18,888 nt of DNA from a virus. The notes below the pieces were generated by a model. That model was not told the DNA's origin, did not search any database, and saw nothing but the letters and a program-made list of their open reading frames with translations. Below, piece by piece: positions 1-18,888 of the stretch. The position numbers were made by a program, and so were the translations under genes. The DNA is taken from the IMG/VR virus record IMGVR_UViG_3300045988_111857; one strand, 5' to 3'. The number at the start of each line of letters is the position of its first letter. The stretch's first letter is position 1.

Positions 1-34
1 TAGTGTCAAAACATTTTACCAATTTTTTCCATTT
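1..34. repeat. Left inverted terminal repeat (34 bp)
   Basis: Bases 1-34 (tagtgtcaaaacattttaccaattttttccattt) are the exact reverse complement of 18855-18888. Identity ends at base 35. This is consistent with a terminus of a protein-primed linear genome. Confidence 0.95.
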
Positions 35-1578: not shown

Positions 1579-1648
1579 TACAAATTTTTAATTAGAACTC
1601 TTTACTATTAAGTACAAATAACTAGCAGTAGTTAAGCCTAACTACTAA

Positions 1649-1832
1649 CCTGTGAAATTCTTAACACACTTTAGTGGTTTAGAGTTCTAAAGCGCTTGTG
1701 AAATCTTTAACACACTTTAGTGGTTTAGAGTTCTAAAGCGCTTGTGAAATCTTTAACACACTTTAGTGGTTTAGAGTTCTAAAGCGCTTGTGAAATCTTT
1801 AACACACTTTAGTGATTTAGAGTTCTAAAGCG
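1649..1832. repeat. Four head-to-tail copies of a 46-bp repeat, each with a 14-bp palindrome TTTAGAgtTCTAAA
   Basis: Units start at 1649, 1695, 1741 and 1787 (exact 46-bp period). Units 2 and 3 are identical; units 1 and 4 differ at 1-2 positions. The unit is cttgtgaaatctttaacacactttagtggtttagagttctaaagcg. The palindrome in unit 2 lies at 1724-1737, with a direct half-site cactttag about 10 bp upstream. Confidence 0.95.
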
Positions 1833-1957
1833 TCCATCCGTTAAGAAAAATAGTGAGCAGGGCATTAACCTTAGCACCAACCCCGCCGCGCCGACCACCT
1901 GGGGTGTCACAAGAAGCCTGAAAATAAATCGGGGTTTAATTTCTTAAATTCAATAAT

Positions 1958-2748: not shown

Positions 2749-2989
2749 AGAATTGTATAATGTTAATGAAGATATGTTTGATAACTCTATTTTTGTTGTA
2801 CATAGTGAATATACCAGACCCGACTGTAGAAAATCTTGTAATGATATTATAAACGGATGTGTAATCTATCAAGATGATTACTATTCTATGCCTAAAGTTC
2901 TTAAAGGTTTGCACGTAGCAAGTTTCAGATGTTCAAGCAATGTTAGGTTAAATGATGAACCCAATAAATGGGATATTTGGGTGGTATAA
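2738..2989 (+). CDS. Hypothetical protein (83 aa)
   Basis: ATG 2738 lies 8 nt after GGAGGG (2724-2729); the track ORF opens at GTG 2729. The N-terminus MTIEELYN resembles MTLYDLFN of the 2259 gene. Confidence 0.6.
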   Translation: MTIEELYNVNEDMFDNSIFVVHSEYTRPDCRKSCNDIINGCVIYQDDYYSMPKVLKGLHVASFRCSSNVRLNDEPNKWDIWVV

Positions 2990-2991
2990 TT

Positions 2992-3195
2992 ATGACAATT
3001 AAAGACCTAGATACAGAAACTCTTACCCTACTTAATAAACTATGTGATAACTGGTATATTAAAGCCTGTCCCTCATGGCTAACACACTTTATGGATAAGG
3101 ATTGCCAAGATTGTCAGCTTAGAGAGTTGTGTTATCTTCTTGACCGTTATGATAATGATGTTAAAGAAGAGCTTATAAATAGAGGTGAGTTTTGA
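2992..3195 (+). CDS. Small five-cysteine protein, paralogue 2 (67 aa)
   Basis: ATG 2992 lies just after the upstream stop, with GGGTGG upstream; the track ORF opens at 2968. The motif is LCDNWYIKACPSWLTHFMDKDCQDCQLRELC. Confidence 0.7.
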   Translation: MTIKDLDTETLTLLNKLCDNWYIKACPSWLTHFMDKDCQDCQLRELCYLLDRYDNDVKEELINRGEF

Positions 3196-3197
3196 TT

Positions 3198-3401
3198 ATG
3201 ATTCTTCATCTTGATAAATACGATGACTTATATCTAAACCAATTAAGAATTTTTATTGCTTATTGCTTAACTGGGATACCTTGTCCACCTAGAGGATATT
3301 GTGATTCAACTTGTGGTTTGCATCAATTCTGTAATTTTATGCAGCTTGCATATATTGATGTAATTAAGGAGGAATCTAAGCGCAATGGCACAAAACCATA
3401 A
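3198..3401 (+). CDS. Small five-cysteine protein, paralogue 3 (67 aa)
   Basis: ATG 3198 lies 8 nt after AGAGGTGAG (3181-3189); an alternative TTG start is at 3192. The motif is YCLTGIPCPPRGYCDSTCGLHQFC. Confidence 0.7.
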   Translation: MILHLDKYDDLYLNQLRIFIAYCLTGIPCPPRGYCDSTCGLHQFCNFMQLAYIDVIKEESKRNGTKP

Positions 3402-4125
3402 AACATTTAAGCGCCAAGCCGAAGCAACTAGGTTACTGGAAAAGATAGGCGCAACAAGACGTAAATCCAGAAAAGCAGGTATCACTGTAACAGGTGAGCT
3501 TAAAGAAAGTCTTAGAGGTAGACAATCGCCTGAAATTGCAAATGCTCTTAAATTTACTGCTAATACTGCTCTTGATGAAGCTGAAAAACTGTATAATGAC
3601 CTTATTGATGCAGCTAATAATGTTGAAGATAAAACATCACAAAAGCTAATGCAAGAGTATCTATCTAAATATTCAGAGCATATTAAATCATTAAATAAAT
3701 CTGTTACAGATAGTTATAGGTCATTGAGAGTAGCTAATCGTCTTGAGGATGTTTTTAATTATAGCGATGCCACATATAAGATTCTTAGAAATCCAGATAC
3801 CTATTTTGACAAAAAGAAATGGGGAGCAATTTCTGGTATTCTTAACAATCTTATGGGCACATATAGCAGGAATATTCCACCAGATGATTTGAAAAAATTA
3901 TGTGCATTAGGTCAAAAGTTAGGACTTGACACTTTGGCAGATATGGATAGAGCTTATGCAGAATATGACAATCTGCTAAGAAATTCTGACCAAATTGGTA
4001 AAGTGCTTGTTGATGCAAGTGATAAACTTAGGTCTATTACACAGGGTAATGAAAACTTCATAAAGCGGCATAAAAAAGCTTATGAAGAATTCACAGAACT
4101 TGCATCTAAATATAATTTGTGGTGA
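3385..4125 (+). CDS. Putative terminal protein (246 aa), assigned by position and size only
   Basis: ATG 3385 follows AAGGAGG (3366-3372). It is the largest early ORF upstream of the protein-primed polymerase gene. The size is close to the phi29 terminal protein (266 aa). The N-terminus is basic (KRQAEATRLLEKIGATRRKSRK). I recognise no sequence similarity. Confidence 0.45.
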   Translation: MAQNHKTFKRQAEATRLLEKIGATRRKSRKAGITVTGELKESLRGRQSPEIANALKFTANTALDEAEKLYNDLIDAANNVEDKTSQKLMQEYLSKYSEHIKSLNKSVTDSYRSLRVANRLEDVFNYSDATYKILRNPDTYFDKKKWGAISGILNNLMGTYSRNIPPDDLKKLCALGQKLGLDTLADMDRAYAEYDNLLRNSDQIGKVLVDASDKLRSITQGNENFIKRHKKAYEEFTELASKYNLW

Positions 4126-4130
4126 TTATT

Positions 4131-4258
4131 GTGGTTAATATACTAATCTTTATTATTCTATTTTTGCAGCTTTAACTCTTGGCGTTGTTTTTGTTTATGT
4201 ATATATCAAAGCAGTAGCTAAGTTATTGGAATGGTTAGATAAGAAACTAGGCAAATAA
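4131..4258 (+). other. Small hydrophobic ORF split across two frames at a T5 run
   Basis: GTG 4131 (GGTGA lies 5 nt upstream) reads VVNILIFIILFLQL then stops. The adjacent frame continues AALTLGVVFVYVYIKAVAKLLEWLDKKLGK to TAA at 4256-4258 but has no start codon. One extra T in ttttt (4161-4165) would fuse the two into a single-pass membrane peptide of about 42 aa. Confidence 0.35.
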
Positions 4259-4294
4259 AGAAAAATATACTATGGCGGCATAAGGGTGATTATT

Positions 4295-4426
4295 ATGGCA
4301 ATAGAACTTAAAATCATAATAGGAGTTTTATTAGGTCTTATCATTTCACTTGCACTCTCCTACTGTATACTTATCACGATAGGTTTTGTAGAATGTTTCT
4401 TTAACTGGCTTAATTCTCTATTCTAA
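4295..4426 (+). CDS. Small single-pass membrane peptide (43 aa)
   Basis: ATG 4295 lies 5 nt after AAGGGTGA. The product is MAIELKIIIGVLLGLIISLALSYCILITIGFVECFFNWLNSLF. It is below the ORF-track length cutoff. Confidence 0.5.
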   Translation: MAIELKIIIGVLLGLIISLALSYCILITIGFVECFFNWLNSLF

Positions 4427-4457
4427 TATTATATTATTATGGGAGGTGGTGCTGTAT

Positions 4458-6965
4458 GTGAGAAAGCGTAATGAGCATAAGTATTCAACTATCATATATT
4501 GCTATGATATTGAAACATCATCCTTAATGTATGGTGAGGATGAACTTCAAGAGCATCTGCAAAGCACTTATCTTCATGGCCTAGCTTCATTTGCTTATCG
4601 TCCCATACCTCATGCACCATTTAGTGACTTTGAGAATGAAATGAATTATAATTTCTTTAGAACTTATGATTCAATTTCTTCGGAATTTGAGAGAATCAAC
4701 GAGGATGCTAAGAATAATGATGTATATGTTAAAATCTTTGTACACAACTTAAGCTATGAATTTGAAGCAATGATGCGTAACATAAATTTCTGTATTAAGA
4801 ACTTTAATTCTAAACGTTTCATTGCAGTTGCTCCACACCAGCCATTAGTAGCAGCTTTTGACCATCTTGAATTTTATGATAGCTTCAAGATTCTTTCCTG
4901 TAAAAGTCTTGAGCTTATCGGTACAGAGCTTGGAGTTCCTAAACTTAAAGAAGTCAAAGGCGGTTACGACCAGAAATATTATTGGTGGTCAGATTTACCT
5001 GATTCTGAATACATTTACAATGAACGTGACTGTAAGCTAGTTTTGTATGCATTATGTAGATACATGGCTAACTTTACTAAAGTTGATAATGTATCAGATA
5101 TTGGAGTATCTAACACATCAATGATTAAGCGCGAAACAAGGCTTAACAGAAATATTGCTACCGATAAAGAAGTTCATACTGCACAATTTACAGCGGCAAT
5201 AGAACTCAAGAATAATGAACCATTTATGAAGTTCTTTCAGGACTGTCTTGCAGGCGGTTATACTCATGCTAATCCTTACGCGGTAGGTAAAATATTTAAG
5301 GATGTCTGGTGTTTTGATGCAAGTTCTATGCACCCATCAGCAATGTATGGTAGGCGATTTCCTTACAAATGGAGAAAAGAGGTTAATCCTAATGAATGTT
5401 ACCAAAATTTCCAGTCTGCAAACTATGAGTTCTTATCTGGCTGCGAAAGCGGCGCTAACTCAGGGTTCTTCGATTATCCCGACCAACGGATTAAGCTATA
5501 TGGATGTAAAGATGTTAAATTCTATTCAGTCCTCCAAGCAGCATACCGTGAATCAATCTTGTTTGAAAGACCAATAAAATATAACTTTATGGCTAATGTT
5601 ACCTTTTATAATATTAACGCTAAGGATTTTGGTAACTGCATTTACAGTTATATCAGTACGTCCAAATGCACAAATGTTAAAAATGGTAACTTCGACAATG
5701 GTAAAGTAGTCAAAGCAGATGAACTTACATTTCATGGTTGTGATATTGACTTTATGTTAATTCAAATGCTTTATGATTATAGTAGTTCAGAATGTGATGA
5801 ACTTTATTACGCAACAGCCCACAAGTTTATTAACAAGCCTTTACGCAATACAGTTAAATATTATGCACGCCAGAAAACAGGATTCAAAAAACTTGAGCAT
5901 AAAGTTGCTGACCATGTAGAAACGCTAAACGATTTTACATTTGAAGGATTGAAGCTTTATGACGATTCTGTGGCACAAGAGATTATGAATACCCATAACA
6001 AAGATTTAGTCCACTTCGCCTTAATGGCAAGCAAAGGTGGATTGAATGGTCAGTATGGATGTTCAGCAATGAAGCCATTACGGCAGGAAGTTGGCGTGCA
6101 GGGGGACGGTGATAAATTTGAATGGATTCCTACTGGGGTTAAGTTTCTTAAATCCAGAAATTCCCTAAACATTTTCACAGATGGTTTATACACAGTTGCT
6201 TACAGTAGACTGCACCTTATTTGCTTTATGCTCTATCTAGTATTAAGCCAAGGTATTGAACCTCTCTATCATGATACAGATAGTGGCTATTTTGTAGGTT
6301 ACAATGAGAATGTCCAAAAGGCCGTTGATAGATTCAATGAGAATATTCTCAACAACAGTGAGAATAAAGATTGTTACAATTTTGGCATTATGGACTTCGA
6401 TGGTCACTATGAGGATTTTGTAACATGGGGAAGTAAATGCTATTGTGCAACATACTTAGATGCAGATAAACACTTAAAAGTTAAGGCTACTGTAGCAGGT
6501 GCAAGCAAGAAGCAGCTTTCTGAATTGTTTACGCAAATAGTGAACGACGAAGATTTTGAGTACCTAGTTCAAGAATATTTTCGTCCAAATATCAGTTATG
6601 ATGAATCCATAAACAAGAAGCTTATTCGTAAAACTCCCGGAACACATATCATAGGAGATTTTACAGATGACAATGGAGAAACAGACCACTTAGACGAATA
6701 TTCTGTAACTGTGCTAGAACCTTGCGGCTATACATTACGCTCAACAAATAGTCCTGTTAATAGAATGTATTATTCATTCTGTTATTCATTGCGTGGAGAA
6801 TCTTATATAGATTATTTGCCCGAAGTTGTTAGCATAAACCATGATGAAAATGATAAAGAACTTTATGGGACTTATCATAAAGTACAATCCGACAAAGAAT
6901 ATGCTATGTTAATTGACGGCAATCCTGCAAGTATATTCCAGTGGGAATGGAGTGATAGGAGATGA
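4458..6965 (+). CDS. Protein-primed family B DNA polymerase (835 aa from GTG 4458; track ORF opens at 4446)
   Basis: Motifs found: Exo I YCYDIETS, Exo II HNLSYEF, Exo III YIYNERD, motif A FDASSMHPSAMY, motif B KGGLNGQYG (Kx3NSxYG type), motif C YHDTDSGYF (YxDTDS) and KxY GSKCYC. GTG 4458 lies 9 nt after GGGAGGTGG. Confidence 0.93.
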   Translation: MRKRNEHKYSTIIYCYDIETSSLMYGEDELQEHLQSTYLHGLASFAYRPIPHAPFSDFENEMNYNFFRTYDSISSEFERINEDAKNNDVYVKIFVHNLSYEFEAMMRNINFCIKNFNSKRFIAVAPHQPLVAAFDHLEFYDSFKILSCKSLELIGTELGVPKLKEVKGGYDQKYYWWSDLPDSEYIYNERDCKLVLYALCRYMANFTKVDNVSDIGVSNTSMIKRETRLNRNIATDKEVHTAQFTAAIELKNNEPFMKFFQDCLAGGYTHANPYAVGKIFKDVWCFDASSMHPSAMYGRRFPYKWRKEVNPNECYQNFQSANYEFLSGCESGANSGFFDYPDQRIKLYGCKDVKFYSVLQAAYRESILFERPIKYNFMANVTFYNINAKDFGNCIYSYISTSKCTNVKNGNFDNGKVVKADELTFHGCDIDFMLIQMLYDYSSSECDELYYATAHKFINKPLRNTVKYYARQKTGFKKLEHKVADHVETLNDFTFEGLKLYDDSVAQEIMNTHNKDLVHFALMASKGGLNGQYGCSAMKPLRQEVGVQGDGDKFEWIPTGVKFLKSRNSLNIFTDGLYTVAYSRLHLICFMLYLVLSQGIEPLYHDTDSGYFVGYNENVQKAVDRFNENILNNSENKDCYNFGIMDFDGHYEDFVTWGSKCYCATYLDADKHLKVKATVAGASKKQLSELFTQIVNDEDFEYLVQEYFRPNISYDESINKKLIRKTPGTHIIGDFTDDNGETDHLDEYSVTVLEPCGYTLRSTNSPVNRMYYSFCYSLRGESYIDYLPEVVSINHDENDKELYGTYHKVQSDKEYAMLIDGNPASIFQWEWSDRR

Positions 6966-6970
6966 TTTAA

Positions 6971-7171
6971 TTGAAAGAAAAAGATTCTTATAGAATCAGT
7001 AGAAGAGCTACATGTCCTTATTATATTTCTCATACCACAAATTACATTCGTTGTGAGGATATGAGAGTGTCACGCCAAGAATACAACCTTAAAACCGATT
7101 GTTGCGGCCAGTATAAAAACTGTCCTCAATATAAATTTCTTACTTACCATTATTTAACAAAGGAGAACTAA
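6971..7171 (+). CDS. Cys-rich hypothetical protein (66 aa)
   Basis: TTG 6971 lies 9 nt after AGGAG (6957-6961). The product has six Cys (CP..C..CC..CP). Confidence 0.55.
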   Translation: MKEKDSYRISRRATCPYYISHTTNYIRCEDMRVSRQEYNLKTDCCGQYKNCPQYKFLTYHYLTKEN

Positions 7172-7173
7172 CT

Positions 7174-7524
7174 ATGTACACTAACAAGAAAGCATCCGCT
7201 AAGGCCACCAATTCTGCTAAGTCCGCTTCTTCCATCATCACCGATATCCGTATCTTCCCTATCAATAACAAGAAGTCTAATTGTTGTGCTATGGTTTCCA
7301 TTACACTTGCAAATGTGTTCTGCATTACTGGTATTAAGATTATGGATGGAAGCAAAGGGCTGTTTGTTGCAATGCCCAGTGCAAAGAATAAGAAAGATGA
7401 ATGGCATGATATTTGCTATCCTATTACCAAGGAATTTCGTAAAGTTATGAGCGATTCTATTCTTAATGCTTTTGATGCTTTGCAGGAAGATGAAGATGAC
7501 GATGATGAAAGTGAGGATGACTGA
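7174..7524 (+). CDS. spoVG: SpoVG-family protein with Ser/Ala/Lys-rich N-terminal extension and acidic C-terminal tail (116 aa)
   Basis: ITDIRIFPIN..AMVSITL..GIKIMDGSKGLFVAMPS..WHDICYPIT aligns by eye with Bacillus SpoVG (VTDVRLRRVN..AIASITL..DIRVIDGNNGLFVAMPS..FRDI.HPIN). The tail is QEDEDDDDESEDD. Confidence 0.85.
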   Translation: MYTNKKASAKATNSAKSASSIITDIRIFPINNKKSNCCAMVSITLANVFCITGIKIMDGSKGLFVAMPSAKNKKDEWHDICYPITKEFRKVMSDSILNAFDALQEDEDDDDESEDD

Positions 7525-7576
7525 CAAGCTCCCCAATGAATTACCACCATATATAGACGATGATTTGCCATTCTAA

Positions 7577-7618
7577 ATAAAAAGCACCCCTAAGTGGATA
7601 ACCACCTAGGGGTGTTTT
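7577..7618. terminator. Bidirectional intrinsic terminator between the convergent early (+) and late (-) gene blocks
   Basis: The stem is cacccctaagtgg (7585-7597) / ccacctaggggtg (7602-7614) with one mismatch and loop ataa. An A-run lies upstream and TTTT downstream, so it can function on both strands. Confidence 0.85.
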
Positions 7619-7623
7619 ATTAG

Positions 7624-10158
7624 TTAAGTAATATTAGGACGAAGAACCTTAATAGCAGTCATACCATTGTTGTTATCCCAGCGAGGATAATCCATAGGAG
7701 TGCCATCTTCATTTCTAATACGGTCAAGAATAACAGGGGAGTTACCATCCATAAATCCAGAAACCTGAACCGTGACGGCATAAGATGCAGGACGTTTGAA
7801 GTAAAGGATGATAGCATTACCATCATTGGTATAATAAAGTCTATTCAAGTCATCAACTACATCCCAAGTAACAGTCTTGCCTACACCAGCGGGCGCTCCA
7901 TAAATGGCCTTATTAAGCTGACGATTATCAACAGCACTAATTGCAAACAACCCGTAAGATTCAGGGTTATTGCTAAGATAAACAGTAAAATCAATGTCAT
8001 TTCTATCCATCACACGGATAGAACCCTGTGAAGTAGAACCACCAGAAGGAACTGGAATAAATGCAAATGCCTTGTACAGTTCAGGGTCACCAGTTACGGA
8101 TTGCCCAGCAACCGTATACTGCGTCTGGTTAGTAATAGCCAAGTCAATGCAACGATGTTCACCAGCTGCACAGATATACTGCCCACGCTTTACAGCGTCA
8201 GTACCAAAGACATATTCACGCTTTGTATAAATGTAAACATCGTTAAGCTTACATACAGCATTAGTAACAGGATAAGTACCAATTGACTGAACAGTAGTGC
8301 TAACCTTAGCAGAACGATTGATAACGCCGCCATTAACAATGAACTGCGGATTAGGACTGGTACCAATCAGAGCGATAGCTGCATAACCAGTAGCAGTAGT
8401 AGCAGTTCCATCATTACATGCATAAATCAGATTATTGATGTAAGCTGCTGCTTTTCCCGGCCCATCGAATACAAAAGCATACTTGCAGGTATCTGCATAG
8501 AAGTTAGTAACATGAATATCATTGTTAGTAACCTTGCAAGCGATTGAGTTATCCCACCAAGTATTAGCGTCAGTACCACCAGTACCGCCAGAGGGAATAC
8601 CAGTATAGCTAGTCCAGTTGCAACCGTATACATTAGTACGGCAGTCAAAACCAACCTGACATACCATATTAACAAGGTTATTACATTCACAATCGGGAGC
8701 TTTATTGCCCCAGAAAAATGCAACAGAATCAGTCCAGCGTTCTACAGGAGTATTATCGCTAAATCCCCATACCATTACATTATTCATGTAGCAGTAACGG
8801 TTCAAAGTGCTGTTAGCAGGCTGCAAATAAACACCATAGGACTTAACCTTATTGATGCTTACATTGTAAATACTGTTATCGGTATATTTATTGGTAGTGA
8901 ATACAATGCCACCAATCATACCACTACAAGTAATGTCCAAATTAGCAATAACAATGTTACCAGTTACGTCATCACCTGATACGGTAATAACACCCTGACT
9001 GCCAAACGCAGTCGGACTAGCAGTATACTGTAAAATAGTATCACTTGTGCCACGCGCAGGGTCACGAGAAGAACCAGCACCATACAAGCTATGCTTAAGC
9101 TGCAAAGGACCACTTACCTTATAAGTACCAGCAGGAATAAACAGAGGTTCGTTCTTAGTGTGAGTGTTAATGGTGGCAGTAATATCATCCGTACCATCCA
9201 TTTTAAGGTCTTGATATGCACGAATATCAACGGGAGAGCTAGGGATAGTACTAAAGTCAGCAGTGTCACGAATAAGCGCAACTTTGTGTTGTTTTCCATT
9301 ATAATCCCTAAGCGCCCACCAGTCAAAATTATCGTTGTAATGCTGTATAATCAGGTTAGTTTTAACAGGGCCATCTAAAAACGTTCCACCCTGACTGCCA
9401 ATAGTAACGGGGGTGTTAGGGTCGTTAGGCACCACTAGCGCATTATAATGACCCTTGGTAGACTTTACAGCAAAATTATTTGCCTTGATAGTATAATCTC
9501 CGCTGACCGTCTGATTCATGTTACCGCCGACAGTCTGGTCAAGATTTCCAACAGTGTCTTTGTCAATCTTCTTATTAAGATTAGTGTTAATGTTTTCAAT
9601 ATTGGTATTGATTTTCTTAATAGAATCATCAACACTAGACTTATTACTCTCAACCTTAGTATTAAGGTCATTCAGCTGTTCACCGATGTTGGTTTTCTTA
9701 CAGTTAGTACCCTCAATATAGCGTGTACCAGCATCCATGGCTTTTGTAATAACATACAAATCATTATTAAGCCAAACAAGGTCGTTAATATTACGATTAG
9801 CACTTGCAGTAGTTTTCAGCTTTTCATCAACAGGAGTGATGGCAAGCTTAACACTTCCCCAGAGTTCAGAGAAGTTGCCAATCTTAGTCCAGTAATCTTC
9901 ATTATCAATATCAATGCCAATAGGTACAGGCTGTGTGCTCAAATATCCATCACCATTGACAGTGACAACAACTGTATTACGAGGATACTGTTTAGTAATA
10001 TCCCATTGAATGGGGTCTGCATAACTAATGGAACTGGTTTCAATGTACTGCTGCATTACCTCAATAACCTTAGATACCATTTCATAGTAACTAATGCTAT
10101 CATCATAGGCAACAGGAATTACAGAACGGAAAAGTTTGTCCAAAGGATTGTACTTCAA
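7624..10158 (-). CDS. Tailspike / pre-neck appendage-like protein with right-handed beta-helix (pectate-lyase-type) domain (844 aa)
   Basis: TTG 10158 lies 6 nt after AGAGGTGA. The size is close to phi29 gp12 (854 aa). An Asn-rich coiled-coil segment is present. A beta-helix cap-like motif reads MDGTDDITATINTHTKNEPLFIPAGTYKV, followed by a Gly/Asn/Thr-rich repetitive beta region. It is the last gene of the late block. Confidence 0.75.
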   Translation of the reverse strand: MKYNPLDKLFRSVIPVAYDDSISYYEMVSKVIEVMQQYIETSSISYADPIQWDITKQYPRNTVVVTVNGDGYLSTQPVPIGIDIDNEDYWTKIGNFSELWGSVKLAITPVDEKLKTTASANRNINDLVWLNNDLYVITKAMDAGTRYIEGTNCKKTNIGEQLNDLNTKVESNKSSVDDSIKKINTNIENINTNLNKKIDKDTVGNLDQTVGGNMNQTVSGDYTIKANNFAVKSTKGHYNALVVPNDPNTPVTIGSQGGTFLDGPVKTNLIIQHYNDNFDWWALRDYNGKQHKVALIRDTADFSTIPSSPVDIRAYQDLKMDGTDDITATINTHTKNEPLFIPAGTYKVSGPLQLKHSLYGAGSSRDPARGTSDTILQYTASPTAFGSQGVITVSGDDVTGNIVIANLDITCSGMIGGIVFTTNKYTDNSIYNVSINKVKSYGVYLQPANSTLNRYCYMNNVMVWGFSDNTPVERWTDSVAFFWGNKAPDCECNNLVNMVCQVGFDCRTNVYGCNWTSYTGIPSGGTGGTDANTWWDNSIACKVTNNDIHVTNFYADTCKYAFVFDGPGKAAAYINNLIYACNDGTATTATGYAAIALIGTSPNPQFIVNGGVINRSAKVSTTVQSIGTYPVTNAVCKLNDVYIYTKREYVFGTDAVKRGQYICAAGEHRCIDLAITNQTQYTVAGQSVTGDPELYKAFAFIPVPSGGSTSQGSIRVMDRNDIDFTVYLSNNPESYGLFAISAVDNRQLNKAIYGAPAGVGKTVTWDVVDDLNRLYYTNDGNAIILYFKRPASYAVTVQVSGFMDGNSPVILDRIRNEDGTPMDYPRWDNNNGMTAIKVLRPNIT

Positions 10159-17212: not shown

Positions 17213-18211
17213 TTATACACCTACAATCTTCAAAATGTCCATCAGGTATCGCCTAATTATTTCATCTTCACAGTACAAACCCCCCAACCGATATTGTTTA
17301 ATAATATATAATAACCAGTTAGGACGTGGAGTGCGTGCAATCAAAATGGTGTTATAATCATGGTCATCATTTGTCAACGCATAAATCACGCCGCTACCCG
17401 GACTGTATTTTCTGGAAAGATAACATTTACCGGAAGAGAAGTCTACCCATAATCCTAAATAATCATCATGAATCTTAAAACCAAACTGATATTTAGCTTC
17501 AGGAGTTTTCTTAGCAATGCCAACTACACTATCAAGATAAAATTCATTGTGAACGGCATATTTACCAAACTTGCTACCTTTCATCAAACGGCCAAAGTCA
17601 GTTTTCTCTTTTGCTTCAATGTACTCTTCATTGTTAGCAATTTGAATTAAGACTAAACCCTCTCTAGTTGTAGCAATTTGCTTTTTGTTAATTGGCTTTT
17701 TAATATCGAATTCTGTGAAATATGGATTTGCCCATGTAACGGCATTGCCGAAGAAGAATACAACCACTCTGCGCATACGAGCAATGGTTTCATAGAGTTC
17801 ACAGAAAAATGTCACTTCATCTTTAAGATAACCGTGATGGCTTTCATCCATGGAGATAAATTCATCAAAGCAGATTTTATTAACGAGTGGAAGTTCTTCT
17901 GATTTTGCGCTTGAGATATAGCGAGTTTGACCAGCTAATTTGCCGTCTATATAATAAGCACCTTCAGGCGTTCCCTTTAACTCATGGTCGGGGAATTCAT
18001 GAGCAACAGCTGCCCAGAAATTTTCTTTGGCCTTCTTATTCATTTCAGTTTTATAGCGGCGAATATAAATAAATTGATTCCCGTTTTTGATAAAATCTTC
18101 AGCAGCCCATTTCTTAAAGCCATAAGTTTTACCACAACCACGAGAACCAACTACAAAATTAAAGAGCGCATTATAAGATAATGTGTTCTTTAAGTCCCAC
18201 CACATTGACAT
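17213..18211 (-). CDS. DNA encapsidation (packaging) ATPase, phi29 gp16-like (332 aa)
   Basis: Walker A is GSRGCGKT and a Walker B-like motif is ICFDEF. At 332 aa it is the same length as gp16. Recalled shared blocks are LSY..NFV.G.RG.GK, G.QFIY.RRYK, EFPDHEL and YIDGKLAG. ATG 18211 lies 9 nt after AAGGAG. Confidence 0.93.
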   Translation of the reverse strand: MSMWWDLKNTLSYNALFNFVVGSRGCGKTYGFKKWAAEDFIKNGNQFIYIRRYKTEMNKKAKENFWAAVAHEFPDHELKGTPEGAYYIDGKLAGQTRYISSAKSEELPLVNKICFDEFISMDESHHGYLKDEVTFFCELYETIARMRRVVVFFFGNAVTWANPYFTEFDIKKPINKKQIATTREGLVLIQIANNEEYIEAKEKTDFGRLMKGSKFGKYAVHNEFYLDSVVGIAKKTPEAKYQFGFKIHDDYLGLWVDFSSGKCYLSRKYSPGSGVIYALTNDDHDYNTILIARTPRPNWLLYIIKQYRLGGLYCEDEIIRRYLMDILKIVGV

Positions 18212-18229
18212 TGTAATACACTCCTTTCA

Positions 18230-18656
18230 TATTTAATATTAAGCCGAGGACTCGACCATTATGCTTAGAGTTAGCGTTCCAATTAACTTAGATTGCGAAC
18301 ATCTTGTGCTGTCCTTTTGGATGGCGGAGTAGGGAGAAAATGACAAACCTATGTAACCATCAAGCTAACAGGCGTGTTAGCGCGGCTGTTTCTCCGACTA
18401 TTGTGTTTAAGAATACTGCTGCGTTAGGTACCGAGCCTAACGGTTTTAAGAGTTCTACTACACAATGTCGGCTTTGGTGGTAGAAATGGGCACAACCCCA
18501 TTAACGTCCAATGACCAGTTTTCCGTTACTCTTAAAGAGTTCTACCATGTTAAGGGTGGCGAAAGGAATTGAGCTAGCAGTCACGCAAACCTATCCGTAA
18601 CGCTTCACGCGCCTGACCACGGCTTAGGAGCATCAATCGTGCCTTTCGCTCCCTAT
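18230..18656 (-). ncRNA. Long structured 5' leader / candidate stable RNA upstream of the packaging ATPase gene
   Basis: The six-frame track shows no ORF of 60 aa or more anywhere in 18212-18888. Hand-counted GC for 18241-18660 is about 47%. A consensus promoter lies immediately upstream. At least eight helices are readable by eye (coordinates given in the first finding). The 3' boundary is unknown. Confidence 0.6.
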
Positions 18657-18662
18657 GATTAT

Positions 18663-18691
18663 ATTATACTTTACAATCCGTATAAAGTCAA
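18663..18691 (-). promoter_or_regulatory. Near-consensus sigma-A/sigma-70 promoter for the leader RNA and late gene block
   Basis: On the - strand, TTGACT (18691-18686) is followed by a 17-nt spacer and TATAAT (18668-18663). The predicted start is near 18656-18654 (A), just before TAGGGAGCGAAAGG. Confidence 0.75.
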
Positions 18692-18767
18692 TAATACAGA
18701 TTGTACTTTTTGTAAAATTAGGAATGATTATTACATAGTGTATAATGCTAATTATGGGTTGGGTAAG

Positions 18768-18861
18768 AGGTACGATAAATGGGACTACTAAAATGAGCGA
18801 GGTGAGCAACCGGTTAAAGGTACGATAAACGGGACTCCAAGGTTAAAGTACGATAAATGGA
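18768..18861. repeat. Three subterminal direct repeats (g)gtacgataaa(t/c)gg at the right end only
   Basis: The copies are aggtacgataaatgggact (18768-18786), aggtacgataaacgggact (18818-18836) and aagtacgataaatgg (18846-18860). Copies 2 and 3 share the extended form ggttaaag(g)tacgataaa. Copy 3 runs into the ITR. Confidence 0.85.
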
Positions 18862-18888
18862 AAAAATTGGTAAAATGTTTTGACACTA
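18855..18888. repeat. Right inverted terminal repeat (34 bp)
   Basis: This is the exact reverse complement of bases 1-34. Confidence 0.95.

What the first reader, a model, noticed from the sequence alone, without database searches (positions are those of the whole stretch)
18230..18691. About 430-nt ORF-free, GC-enriched, multi-domain RNA between a consensus promoter and the phi29-type packaging ATPase gene: candidate pRNA equivalent or new large structured phage RNA
Seen in sequence: a perfect TTGACT-17-TATAAT promoter on the - strand (18691-18663) fires into about 430 nt with no ORF of 60 aa or more, before the AAGGAG RBS and ATG (18211) of the gp16-like ATPase. Hand-counted GC is about 47%, against roughly 22-40% elsewhere. 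The RNA reads as a closed multi-domain fold, given here in + strand coordinates. A closing helix pairs 18649-18655 with 18330-18336 (TAGGGAG/CTCCCTA). Domain I is closed by 18642-18649 with 18559-18566 (GCGAAAGG/CCTTTCGC). Domain II is closed by 18540-18547 with 18478-18485 (TGGTAGAA/TTCTACCA); it contains hairpins 18528-18540 and 18487-18500 and a stem pairing 18502-18506 with 18524-18528. Domain III is closed by a 12-bp helix with one bulge (18460-18471 with 18394-18406) and contains a 7-bp hairpin (18422-18428 with 18436-18442). A further 7-bp hairpin lies at 18364-18381 with loop CGCC. The segment ACTCC (18326-18330), next to the closing helix, is complementary to the ATPase Shine-Dalgarno GGAGT (18220-18224), so alternative pairing could gate translation. 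Established knowledge: phi29-family packaging motors need a phage-encoded pRNA (174 nt in phi29) that bridges the connector and gp16, and pRNAs are poorly conserved in sequence. Inference: this is the only long structured non-coding region in the genome, so it is the best pRNA candidate. It would be unusual in being about 2.5 times larger than phi29 pRNA and made in cis with the ATPase mRNA. Alternatives are an antitermination or processive leader, a riboswitch-like translational switch for a late block that has a constitutive-looking promoter, or an unrelated large ornate RNA.
Basis: partly seen in the sequence, partly recalled or inferred. Interest (0 to 1): 0.88.

Follow-up and report, generated by a model that had tools for sequence, protein, structure and literature searches.

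The report
Prohead-RNA-like gene beside packaging ATPase
The first ~105 nt of this non-coding stretch fold like the phi29 "prohead RNA" that helps pack DNA into the phage head, and this RNA belongs to a large, undescribed family found next to the packaging ATPase gene in many gut phi29-like phages, a group in which no such RNA had been recognised.

Summary

1. Window 18656-18553 (- strand) is a ~105-nt three-way-junction RNA. All helices covary: 91-92% of cells are paired, against 34-50% in slid controls. A 4-5-nt complementarity between a bulge and a hairpin loop also covaries, in more than 20 sequence versions. This is the topology of phi29 prohead RNA (pRNA).
2. 18546-18475 is a degenerate tRNA-like element. 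At that position three sister lineages carry a true tRNA-Thr(UGU).
3. 18471-18394 is a hairpin that is present, swapped or absent among near-identical genomes.
4. 18387-18242 is a covarying four-way junction of unknown role.

A covariance model of module 1 finds full-length matches on the ATPase strand in 47 of 57 diverse IMG/VR loci and 34 of 65 MAG loci. They lie next to the gp16-like ATPase gene, usually upstream and in one clade downstream. One match is in a cultured phage, Clostridium phage CI461P2.

Rfam's pRNA model does not match this RNA, and this model does not match phi29.

Best reading: a divergent pRNA equivalent, released from the late transcript by tRNA-type processing.

The parts
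18663..18691 (-). Sigma-70-type promoter TTGACT-17-TATAAT. The predicted transcription start is about 18656, the first base of the terminal helix.
   Evidence: 11 of 12 consensus matches. Conserved in all full-length relatives.
18553..18656 (-). pRNA-like three-way-junction RNA ('Domain I'). Helices and loops:
- P1: 18654-18651 / 18556-18553
- P2: 18649-18642 / 18566-18559
- 3-nt bulge CAC: 18641-18639
- P2b: 18638-18630 / 18574-18567
- P3: 18628-18618 / 18599-90
- 5'-side bulge GUCAG: 18617-18613
- P4 hairpin: 18612-18600
- UUU linker
- D hairpin: 18586-18577, with loop GUGACU
   Evidence: RNAalifold and pair counts. Covariance-model hit of 128 bits. Within the clade it is 97.0% identical, against 84.2% at ATPase third codon positions.
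18580..18617 (-). Loop-loop (or pseudoknot) pairing of GUCA (18617-18614) with UGAC (18583-18580). It corresponds to the right-hand and left-hand loop pairing of pRNA.
   Evidence: 100% paired, with 3 of 4 pairs compensatory. At least 4 Watson-Crick pairs in 24 of 27 and 26 of 29 distinct sequences; 0 of 20000 and 0 of 5000 permutations reach the observed total.
18475..18546 (-). Degenerate tRNA-like element: a 7-bp acceptor stem GGUAGAA/UUCUACC, a D-like hairpin, an enlarged anticodon-arm region, a T arm AUGGG/CCCAU, and a 3' ACCA.
   Evidence: ARAGORN and the Rfam tRNA model do not call it. A true tRNA-Thr(UGU) occupies the homologous position in L056, L059 and L129. 98.9% conserved within the clade.
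18394..18471 (-). Among near-identical genomes it is present in a long form, replaced by a ~40-nt alternative, or absent.
   Evidence: Alignment A1; BLAST gaps; fold z = -5.2.
18242..18387 (-). Four-way junction with a cloverleaf-like topology:
- S1: 18387-83 / 18246-42
- S2: 18381-76 / 18369-64
- S3: 18361-57 / 18324-20, with a YCCUAC-containing loop
- CAAAA junction
- S4: 18314-11 / 18251-48, enclosing a second variable insert at about 18310-18262
   Evidence: Within-clade pair counts. Cross-clade compensatory versions of all four helices in L125, L126, L130 and L056 (read by eye). The MFE fold reproduces S1-S4.
18209..18241 (-). A/U-rich spacer, Shine-Dalgarno AAGGAG, and the ATG (18211-18209) of the gp16-like ATPase gene (17213-18211).
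   Evidence: The ATPase matches phi29 gp16 over its full length (7jqq_A, E = 5.5e-58) and carries PF05894.

Best explanation
The region is the non-coding leader of the late (packaging, lysis and structural) operon of a complete 18.9-kb phi29-like phage genome. It is modular.

Module 1. Transcription from the consensus promoter starts at about 18656. The first ~105 nt fold into a three-way-junction RNA built like phi29 prohead RNA. It has these parts:
- a long terminal helix that joins the 5' and 3' ends and carries a 3-nt bulge on its 5' strand
- a C/E arm with a 5'-side bulge
- a U-rich junction linker
- a short D hairpin

The bulge (GUCA) is complementary to the D loop (UGAC).

Inferred mechanism, by analogy with phi29. 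Copies of this RNA pair bulge-to-loop to form a ring on the narrow end of the connector of the prohead. The terminal helix then docks the gp16-like ATPase, which has no nuclease or portal-binding domain of its own. The RNA and ATPase leave after packaging.

Module 2. The adjacent tRNA-derived element probably serves as a processing signal. RNase P would cut at its 5' end, around 18547/18546, and release the small RNA with a defined 3' end. tRNA 3'-end processing would separate it from the downstream mRNA.

Modules 3 and 4. The variable hairpin is dispensable. The four-way junction just before the Shine-Dalgarno is under selection, but its role is not established; it could act in mRNA 5'-end processing or stability, or bind a protein.

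What is shown and what is inferred.
- Shown: the structure, its covariation, its conservation, its linkage to the ATPase gene, and the tRNA homology.
- Inferred: the role in packaging, ring formation, and RNase P processing.
For: Structure:
- In 13 diverse sequences, 85.7% of cells are paired against 39-46% in slid controls, and 29 of 42 pairs show double changes.
- In 38 sequences, 91.4% are paired against 38-50%, with a covariation score of 0.965 against at most 0.185.
- In an independent set of 32 sequences not used to build the model, 92.1% are paired against 34-48%.

Loop-loop pairing:
- It is always paired, in more than 20 different sequence versions (GUCA/UGAC, GCCA/UGGC, ACCA/UGGU, AUCA/UGAU, GCAA/UUGC, UCCAA/UUGGA, ACUA/UAGU, GUUA/UAAC and others).
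- Cognate pairs beat permuted pairs in 20000 of 20000 and 5000 of 5000 trials.

Same topology as RF00044: compare the consensus-structure lines (phi29; this RNA).

Strand: frequent G-U pairs (for example 11-15 sequences at several pairs) fit RNA from this strand, not a DNA element.

Linkage:
- Full-length model hits fall only on the ATPase strand.
- They lie 10-250 nt upstream of the ATG in most loci, and 29 nt downstream of the stop codon in clade L154-L169.
- 47 of 57 IMG/VR loci and 34 of 65 MAG loci are positive.
- There are no significant hits elsewhere in the loci.

Protein partners:
- The ATPase is a full-length gp16 homologue, including the C-terminal domain that binds the pRNA A-helix in phi29 (7jqq E = 5.5e-58; 6v1w E = 3e-9; bioRxiv 10.1101/2020.07.06.188573).
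- The connector is homologous to phi29 gp10 (1h5w E = 9e-21) and has a basic N-terminus, MSKRSQK.

No canonical pRNA lies elsewhere in the genome.

tRNA link: tRNA-Thr(UGU) directly follows the RNA in L056, L059 and L129. Elsewhere in the clade only the acceptor and T-arm minihelix is kept.

Purifying selection: 97-99% identity against 84% at synonymous sites.
Against: - Rfam's pRNA model RF00044 does not match the window even at E up to 10, although it scores 145 bits on phi29.
- The new models do not match phi29 or the left end of GA-1. Homology to known pRNA is therefore unproven, and the resemblance could be convergent.
- Covariation cannot tell whether the bulge/D-loop pairing is intermolecular or an intramolecular pseudoknot. 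The D stem is only 3 bp, against 6 bp in phi29.
- In phi29 the pRNA is an early transcript at the opposite end of the genome from gene 16. Here it heads the late transcript.
- One relative, L055, has a 99%-identical ATPase but an unrelated 1 kb upstream with no RNA; its contig is absent from the list of viral contigs carrying the Domain I 18-mer. It may be a chimeric contig.
- About 10 of 57 IMG/VR loci gave no hit within 1.5 kb. Cultured Cp-1 gave none anywhere in its genome, and Athos and phiZP2 gave none within 1.5 kb of the ATPase gene.
- There are no expression, processing or prohead-binding data.
Confidence: 0.72

Rival explanations
1. A cis-acting regulatory leader of the ATPase/late operon, such as a riboswitch, an antitermination element or a translational switch. 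The structured RNA would sense a signal or protein and control downstream expression, and would have no role in the packaging motor.
For: In the window and most relatives the RNA lies upstream of the ATPase gene on the same transcript. A conserved four-way junction sits directly before the Shine-Dalgarno. ACUCC in its S3 loop can pair with GGAGU of the SD in this clade.
Against: - In clade L154-L169 the same RNA lies 29 nt downstream of the ATPase stop codon, so it cannot be a 5' leader there.
- The RNA closes on itself through a 5'/3' terminal helix, with no conserved alternative pairing to a terminator or SD.
- No terminator-like site is present.
- The anti-SD complementarity is not conserved.
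- In this clade a tRNA or tRNA-like element separates the RNA from the mRNA.
- No Rfam riboswitch family matches.
Confidence: 0.1
2. A structured non-coding RNA with an intramolecular pseudoknot and a function unrelated to packaging. Examples would be a ribozyme, a decoy for a host defence or RNase, or a chaperone for tRNA processing. It would only resemble pRNA by convergence.
For: There is no detectable sequence or covariance-model similarity to RF00044 in either direction. Covariation is equally compatible with an intramolecular pseudoknot. The association with tRNA genes in one clade could hint at a tRNA-related role.
Against: - The RNA is linked to the gp16-type ATPase gene in both upstream and downstream arrangements, across ATPases only about 40-50% identical.
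- The order and proportions of its elements match pRNA point by point.
- The RNA is retained where no tRNA is present (L131, L142, L179, CI461P2).
- These phages have the pRNA-dependent type of ATPase and no other pRNA candidate.
Confidence: 0.13
3. One reading: one large RNA of about 430 nt, closed and multi-domain, that acts as a unit (an 'ornate large RNA' or an enlarged pRNA).
For: All modules lie on one predicted transcript. The MFE fold of the whole leader pairs the 5' GGGAG with the distal CUCCC. All modules are more conserved than synonymous sites.
Against: - The closing helix has no covariation and is only 4 bp in most of its own clade.
- The 5' end pairs locally in P1, with compensatory changes: ACAGGGUA/UACCCUGU in L056 and GUAGGGA/UCCCUAC in L128.
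- Modules 3 and 4b are present, absent or swapped among genomes with 99-100% identical ATPases.
- Distant relatives have only the ~120-nt RNA.
Confidence: 0.03
4. A DNA-level element near the genome end, such as a replication or packaging signal or a protein-binding site, rather than an RNA.
For: It lies about 230 bp from the right inverted terminal repeat. Repeated CCATTTATCGTAC motifs lie just outside it.
Against: - The compensatory changes preserve helices that include many G-U pairs, which would be C-A mismatches on the other strand.
- In other clades the element is internal, between the DNA polymerase and ATPase genes.
- A consensus promoter is positioned so that transcription starts at the first base of the terminal helix.
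Confidence: 0.02

Closest known systems
Prohead/packaging RNA (pRNA) of Bacillus phage phi29 and relatives (Rfam RF00044, Phage_pRNA)
   Same: - It is encoded by a phi29-like phage with a gp16-type ATPase, a gp10-type connector and a protein-primed DNA polymerase.
- It is about 105-120 nt, with the 5' and 3' ends paired in a long A-helix that carries a 3-nt bulge on the 5' strand.
- It has a three-way junction and a C/E arm with a 5'-side bulge.
- It has a 4-bp E hairpin, a U-rich linker and a D hairpin.
- A 4-5-nt covarying complementarity joins the bulge and the D loop.
- It starts right at a strong promoter and lies near a genome end in this genome.
   Different: - Covariance models detect no similarity in either direction.
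- The D stem is 3 bp rather than 6, and the CE bulge is 5-8 nt rather than 9.
- The gene lies next to the ATPase gene and in the same orientation, at the head of the late operon. In phi29 it is in the early region, at the opposite end of the genome from gene 16.
- In this clade it is fused to a tRNA or tRNA-like element. phi29 has no tRNA genes and carries a 3' 'domain II' instead (PMC11476376).
- The hosts are gut anaerobes such as Clostridium_AQ, not Bacillus.
Putative pRNA of Streptococcus phage Cp-1 (Martin et al. 1996, as cited in PMC6266182)
   Same: It is a proposal for a pRNA outside the Bacillus phages that the Bacillus-based covariance model cannot find.
   Different: The present model finds nothing significant anywhere in the Cp-1 genome (best E = 0.38). 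The Cp-1 ATPase is only about 27% identical to this one. I could not read the Cp-1 proposal itself.
tRNA-like 3'-end processing signals (the MALAT1/mascRNA type) and stable RNAs co-transcribed with phage T4 tRNAs
   Same: A non-coding RNA is immediately followed by a tRNA-shaped element that could direct RNase P cleavage to define its 3' end. I recalled this analogy from general knowledge; it was not tested here.
   Different: Those systems are eukaryotic nuclear lncRNAs or a T4 tRNA cluster. No processing data exist for this phage.

Membership tests
pRNA (Rfam RF00044 Phage_pRNA) | Scores above the family's covariance-model gathering threshold (100 bits) | tested here: not met
   There is no hit at gathering threshold on the whole window, and none at E up to 10 on 18100-18888. 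The positive control, phi29, scores 145.4 bits.
pRNA (Rfam RF00044 Phage_pRNA) | The 5' and 3' ends pair in a long A-helix with a bulge on the 5' strand, closing a three-way junction with a C/E arm and a D hairpin | tested here: met
   The consensus structure is supported by covariation in three alignments. Compare the structure lines.
pRNA (Rfam RF00044 Phage_pRNA) | Complementary right-hand (CE bulge) and left-hand (D loop) loops of 3-4 nt or more that covary (PMC12670572) | tested here: met
   At least 4 Watson-Crick pairs in 24 of 27 and 26 of 29 distinct sequences. More than 20 pairing versions. Permutation tests give 0 of 20000 and 0 of 5000.
pRNA (Rfam RF00044 Phage_pRNA) | The loop-loop pairing is intermolecular and builds a ring on the prohead connector | not testable with these tools
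   Covariation cannot separate intra- from intermolecular pairing. This needs gel-shift or complementation assays, or cryo-EM.
pRNA (Rfam RF00044 Phage_pRNA) | The same genome carries a gp16-type ATPase (no nuclease, pRNA-binding C-terminal domain) and a gp10-type connector | tested here: met
   The ATPase matches 7jqq_A at E = 5.5e-58 and the C-terminal domain 6v1w at E = 3e-9, and carries PF05894. The connector matches 1h5w at E = 9e-21.
pRNA (Rfam RF00044 Phage_pRNA) | Required for DNA packaging; present on proheads and absent from virions | not testable with these tools
   No experimental data exist for this phage group.
tRNA (for module 2, 18546-18475) | Recognised as a tRNA with a 7-nt anticodon loop by ARAGORN or the Rfam tRNA model | tested here: not met
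   ARAGORN finds 0 genes in the window. There is no tRNA hit at E up to 10. The anticodon-arm region is a 5-bp stem with a 17-nt loop.
tRNA (for module 2, 18546-18475) | A 7-bp acceptor stem stacked on a 5-bp T arm, with a discriminator base and CCA | tested here: met
   GGUAGAA/UUCUACC, AUGGG/CCCAU and ACCA. A true tRNA-Thr(UGU) is positionally homologous in L056, L059 and L129.
Known large or ornate phage-associated RNAs (ROOL, GOLLD, HEARO and others) and riboswitches in Rfam 15 | A match to any of the 4227 Rfam covariance models | tested here: not met
   Searches return only three chance-level matches (E from 1.2 to 1.9).

The most novel reading that the evidence does not exclude
A second, much larger and previously unrecognised lineage of prohead RNAs exists in phi29-like phages of gut and rumen anaerobes. 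It is encoded next to the packaging ATPase gene. In one clade it matures by hijacking tRNA-processing enzymes through a fused tRNA or tRNA mimic. If so, the RNA-dependent packaging motor is a general, ancestral trait of the phi29-like lineage rather than a peculiarity of Bacillus phages.
Probability: 0.6. Interest if true: 0.85.

Novelty: new variant of a known kind. Interest (0 to 1): 0.8.

Why it matters
pRNA is the only known RNA component of a viral DNA-packaging motor. Recent reviews and searches describe it as confined to phi29 and related Bacillus phages: PMC11476376 (2024), and PMC12670572 (2025), in which the 12 'new' pRNAs were retrieved with phi29, GA1 and DLc1 pRNAs as seeds. Whether the many other phi29-like phages with gp16-type ATPases use an RNA at all has been an open question.

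This family gives a concrete, testable answer.
These are useful both for motor mechanics and for RNA nanotechnology based on the pRNA three-way junction.
- It points to a cultured system, Clostridium phage CI461P2, in which the RNA lies in an unannotated 150-nt gap.
- It suggests a way of maturing a small RNA through a tRNA-like processing signal.
- It offers a covariance model that would allow annotation of the RNA in gut viromes.

Tried and rejected
- Rfam at gathering and at permissive thresholds gave nothing.
- DNA similarity to GenBank phages found no match for the region. Only a 91%-identical fragment of the early region matched.
- An 18-mer scan of viral contigs returned the same clade plus two GC-rich coding chance matches, L103 and L117, which I rejected after reading them.
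- nhmmer with a sequence profile did not reach the 42%-identity clades. Covariance models did.
- My first placement of the pseudoknot columns on alignment A5 was misregistered (helix 6). I replaced it with a register-free cognate-versus-non-cognate loop test.
- I looked for a bridge to known pRNAs. Models R1 and R3 do not hit phi29, R3 does not hit the GA-1 left end, and R3 does not hit Cp-1, Enterococcus phage Athos or C. perfringens phage phiZP2.
- Host assignment from MAG bins is inconsistent (Bacilli, Clostridia, even Bacteroidales and Methanobrevibacter bins), so I did not use it. Only the cultured CI461P2 gives a host.
- I considered a canonical intrinsic terminator after the RNA; none was found.
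- A small-ORF reading was rejected. There is no ORF of 60 aa or more, the indels are not multiples of three, and the substitutions are compensatory.
Full report
CONTEXT

The window is a complete linear phi29-like genome of 18,888 bp with perfect 34-bp inverted terminal repeats.
- Early genes lie on the + strand, including a protein-primed DNA polymerase (4446-6965).
- A long - strand operon starts with a gp16-like ATPase (17213-18211). It continues through holin, M23 peptidase, major capsid protein, tail, connector and collar genes.
- The finding covers the ~480 nt between the right terminal repeat and the ATPase start codon.

THE OBSERVATION

The following parts hold up.
- The promoter TTGACT-17-TATAAT (18691-18663, - strand) matches the consensus at 11 of 12 positions. 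It is conserved in every full-length relative.
- There is no ORF of 60 aa or more.
- GC is 45.5% over 18230-18660 against 37.7% genome-wide, in the top 0.5% of 430-nt windows.
Folding energy alone would therefore not establish anything.
- Rfam 15 finds nothing, either at gathering threshold or at E up to 10.

COMPARATIVE DATA

The ATPase protein retrieved 62 IMG/VR loci with 99-100% identical proteins (92-99% identical at the nucleotide level). It also retrieved more distant loci.
- In the close set the upstream region is alignable (A1).
- The distance from the -10 box to the ATG ranges from 315 to 475 nt, because two segments are present, absent or replaced.
- Targeted look-ups of ATPases at 68-84% identity gave six further lineages, L125-L130, plus L056 and L059.

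Together these sequences show that the region is four modules.

MODULE 1: 18656-18553

An alignment of 13 diverse sequences (A3) gives a consensus fold by RNAalifold with 17 of 25 pairs showing compensatory changes. The full model has these elements:
- P1: AGGG/CCCU. It is extended in relatives to AUAGGGA/UCCCUAU, ACAGGGUA/UACCCUGU and GUAGGGA/UCCCUAC.
- A 3-nt bulge.
- P2b.
- P3.
- A 5-nt 5'-side bulge.
- The P4 hairpin.
- A UUU linker.
- A short D hairpin.

On A3, 85.7% of cells are paired against 39-46% when the partners are slid. 29 of 42 pairs show double changes, against 6-13.

Four bases of the bulge (GUCA, 18617-18614) pair with four bases of the D loop (UGAC, 18583-18580). This helix is 100% paired, and three of its four pairs change on both sides.

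COVARIANCE MODELS AND SPREAD OF THE FAMILY

I built covariance models iteratively (R1 to R3).

57 IMG/VR loci were chosen only through a diverse ATPase alignment.
- 47 of them have a full-length hit on the ATPase strand.
- Most hits lie 10-250 nt upstream of the start codon.
- In one clade (L154-L169) the hit lies 29 nt downstream of the stop codon.

A second, independent collection consisted of phage contigs binned into GTDB MAGs.
- 34 of 65 loci are positive.
- All hits are upstream and on the same strand.
- No significant hits fall elsewhere in these loci.

The structure holds in both alignments.
- In A7 (38 sequences), 91.4% of cells are paired against 38-50% for slid partners. The covariation score is 0.965 against at most 0.185.
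- In A8 (32 sequences, none used to build the model), 92.1% are paired against 34-48%.
- These alignments were fitted to the model, which favours the nested helices.
- The bulge/D-loop pairing is not part of the model, so it is an unbiased test.
- At least 4 contiguous Watson-Crick pairs occur in 24 of 27 and 26 of 29 distinct sequences.
- They occur in more than 20 sequence versions.
- No permutation of D loops among sequences reaches the observed total (0 of 20000 and 0 of 5000).

COMPARISON WITH pRNA

The Rfam consensus structure of phi29 pRNA was printed in the positive control. It reads: A-helix with a 3-nt bulge on the 5' strand, C helix, 9-nt 5'-side bulge, 4-bp E hairpin, three-nucleotide linker, D hairpin, and return strand of the A-helix.
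- The consensus of the present family has the same elements in the same order and with similar sizes. The D stem is shorter and the bulge is shorter.
- In pRNA the bulge (right-hand loop) and the D loop (left-hand loop) pair between molecules to build the ring. Their covariation is used as a defining mark (PMC12670572).

The protein partners fit.
- The ATPase aligns end to end with phi29 gp16 (7jqq_A, E = 5.5e-58). This includes the vestigial-nuclease C-terminal domain (6v1w, E = 3e-9), which binds a pRNA A-helix mimic.
- The connector is a gp10 homologue.
- No other pRNA candidate exists in the genome.

Against membership:
- RF00044 does not score this RNA.
- R1 and R3 do not score phi29, and R3 does not score the GA-1 left end.
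- Common descent is therefore unproven.
- Covariation cannot show whether the pairing is intermolecular.

MODULE 2: 18546-18475

- ARAGORN finds a tRNA-Thr(UGU) immediately after module 1 in L056, L059 and L129. In L128 it finds one just before the ATPase gene.
- In the window ARAGORN and Rfam find no tRNA.
- The homologous segment nevertheless keeps a 7-bp acceptor stem, a T arm and ACCA.
- It is 98.9% conserved within the clade.
- L126, L128 and L130 also keep the acceptor/T-arm minihelix. In L125 and L127 the search did not detect it, and I saw it only by eye.
- The feature retained is the one that RNase P recognises. I therefore infer a role as a processing signal that frees module 1. This inference is not tested.
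- Distant relatives, including CI461P2, lack this module. There the RNA abuts the ATPase gene.

MODULES 3 AND 4

The hairpin 18471-18394 is dispensable. It occurs in three states among near-identical genomes.

The segment 18387-18242 is a four-way junction.
- All four of its helices have compensatory versions in L125, L126, L130 and L056. One example is S1: AGCCG/CGGCU, AUGGG/CCCAU, AAGCGG/CCGCUU and UUGAG/CUCAA. I read these from the sequences.
- Within the clade, covariation is seen in S2, S3 and S4.
- Its core is 91% conserved, against 84% at synonymous sites.
- Its function is open.
- The anti-SD idea is not conserved.
- It occupies the place that a true tRNA holds in L128, and it has cloverleaf topology.

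- The long-range closing helix has no covariation.
- It shrinks to 4 bp in most of its own clade.
- Its 5' strand is used by P1.
- The region is therefore not one closed RNA.

LITERATURE

Within the searchable library, pRNA is described as specific to phi29 and related Bacillus phages.
- The one proposal outside Bacillus, for Cp-1, is known only through a citation. The present model does not match it.
- Model R3 does hit a cultured phage, Clostridium phage CI461P2 from human faeces. The hit fills the unannotated 150-nt gap between the DNA polymerase and ATPase genes (E = 7.5e-7; bulge ACCA, D loop UGGU).
- There is a borderline hit in Eggerthella phage LE1-1.

VERDICT

The first-stage reader found a real and interesting element and named the right analogy, but drew its boundaries wrongly.
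- I consider it near certain that 18656-18553 encodes a conserved structured RNA of a widespread, undescribed family linked to gp16-type ATPases.
- I put the probability that it is a functional pRNA equivalent at about 0.7.
- The RNase P processing role of the tRNA-like element is plausible but untested.

Noticed in passing
window 1-34 and 18855-18888: Perfect 34-bp inverted terminal repeats. The window is therefore a complete linear phi29-like genome.
   Followed up: partly
window 1605-1878 and 81-298: Five tandem 46-nt repeats (TGTGAAAT..TTAACACACTTTAGTGGTTTAGAGTTCTAAAGCG), with related 44-48-nt copies near the left end. Both lie in non-coding DNA on the early-gene side. They may be arrays of protein-binding sites or promoters.
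   Followed up: no
window 18770-18860 (- strand): Three copies of CCATTTATCGTAC lie between the right terminal repeat and the promoter. The copy number and flanking sequence vary among relatives.
   Followed up: partly
L055 1-1001 (IMGVR_UViG_3300045988_078261): This relative has a 99%-identical ATPase, but its upstream 1 kb is an unrelated 169-aa ORF. The RNA is absent from the fetched locus, and the contig is not in the 18-mer scan list. It may be a chimeric assembly or a real replacement.
   Followed up: partly
L154-L169, 2513-2635: In one clade of phi29-like contigs the pRNA-like RNA lies 29 nt downstream of the ATPase stop codon instead of upstream.
   Followed up: partly
L283 1345-1463 (Clostridium phage CI461P2, OP172764.1): A cultured phage of human-gut Clostridium_AQ carries the RNA in an unannotated 150-nt gap between the DNA polymerase and the packaging ATPase genes.
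   Followed up: partly
window 18442-18460 and 18529-18546: The variable hairpin contains TAGAACTCTT, which also forms the 5' part of the tRNA-like element. This suggests a partial duplication.
   Followed up: no
L128 38-554: This relative has two tRNA-shaped elements after the pRNA-like RNA. One is an enlarged tRNA-like element. The other is a true tRNA-Thr(UGU) that ends 11 nt before the ATPase start, in the place occupied by the four-way junction in the window.
   Followed up: partly
window 2979-9217: The only GenBank phage record with nucleotide similarity is an unannotated 6.9-kb human-faecal fragment, MT837423 (91% identity). It covers early genes and part of the late region, not the RNA.
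   Followed up: no
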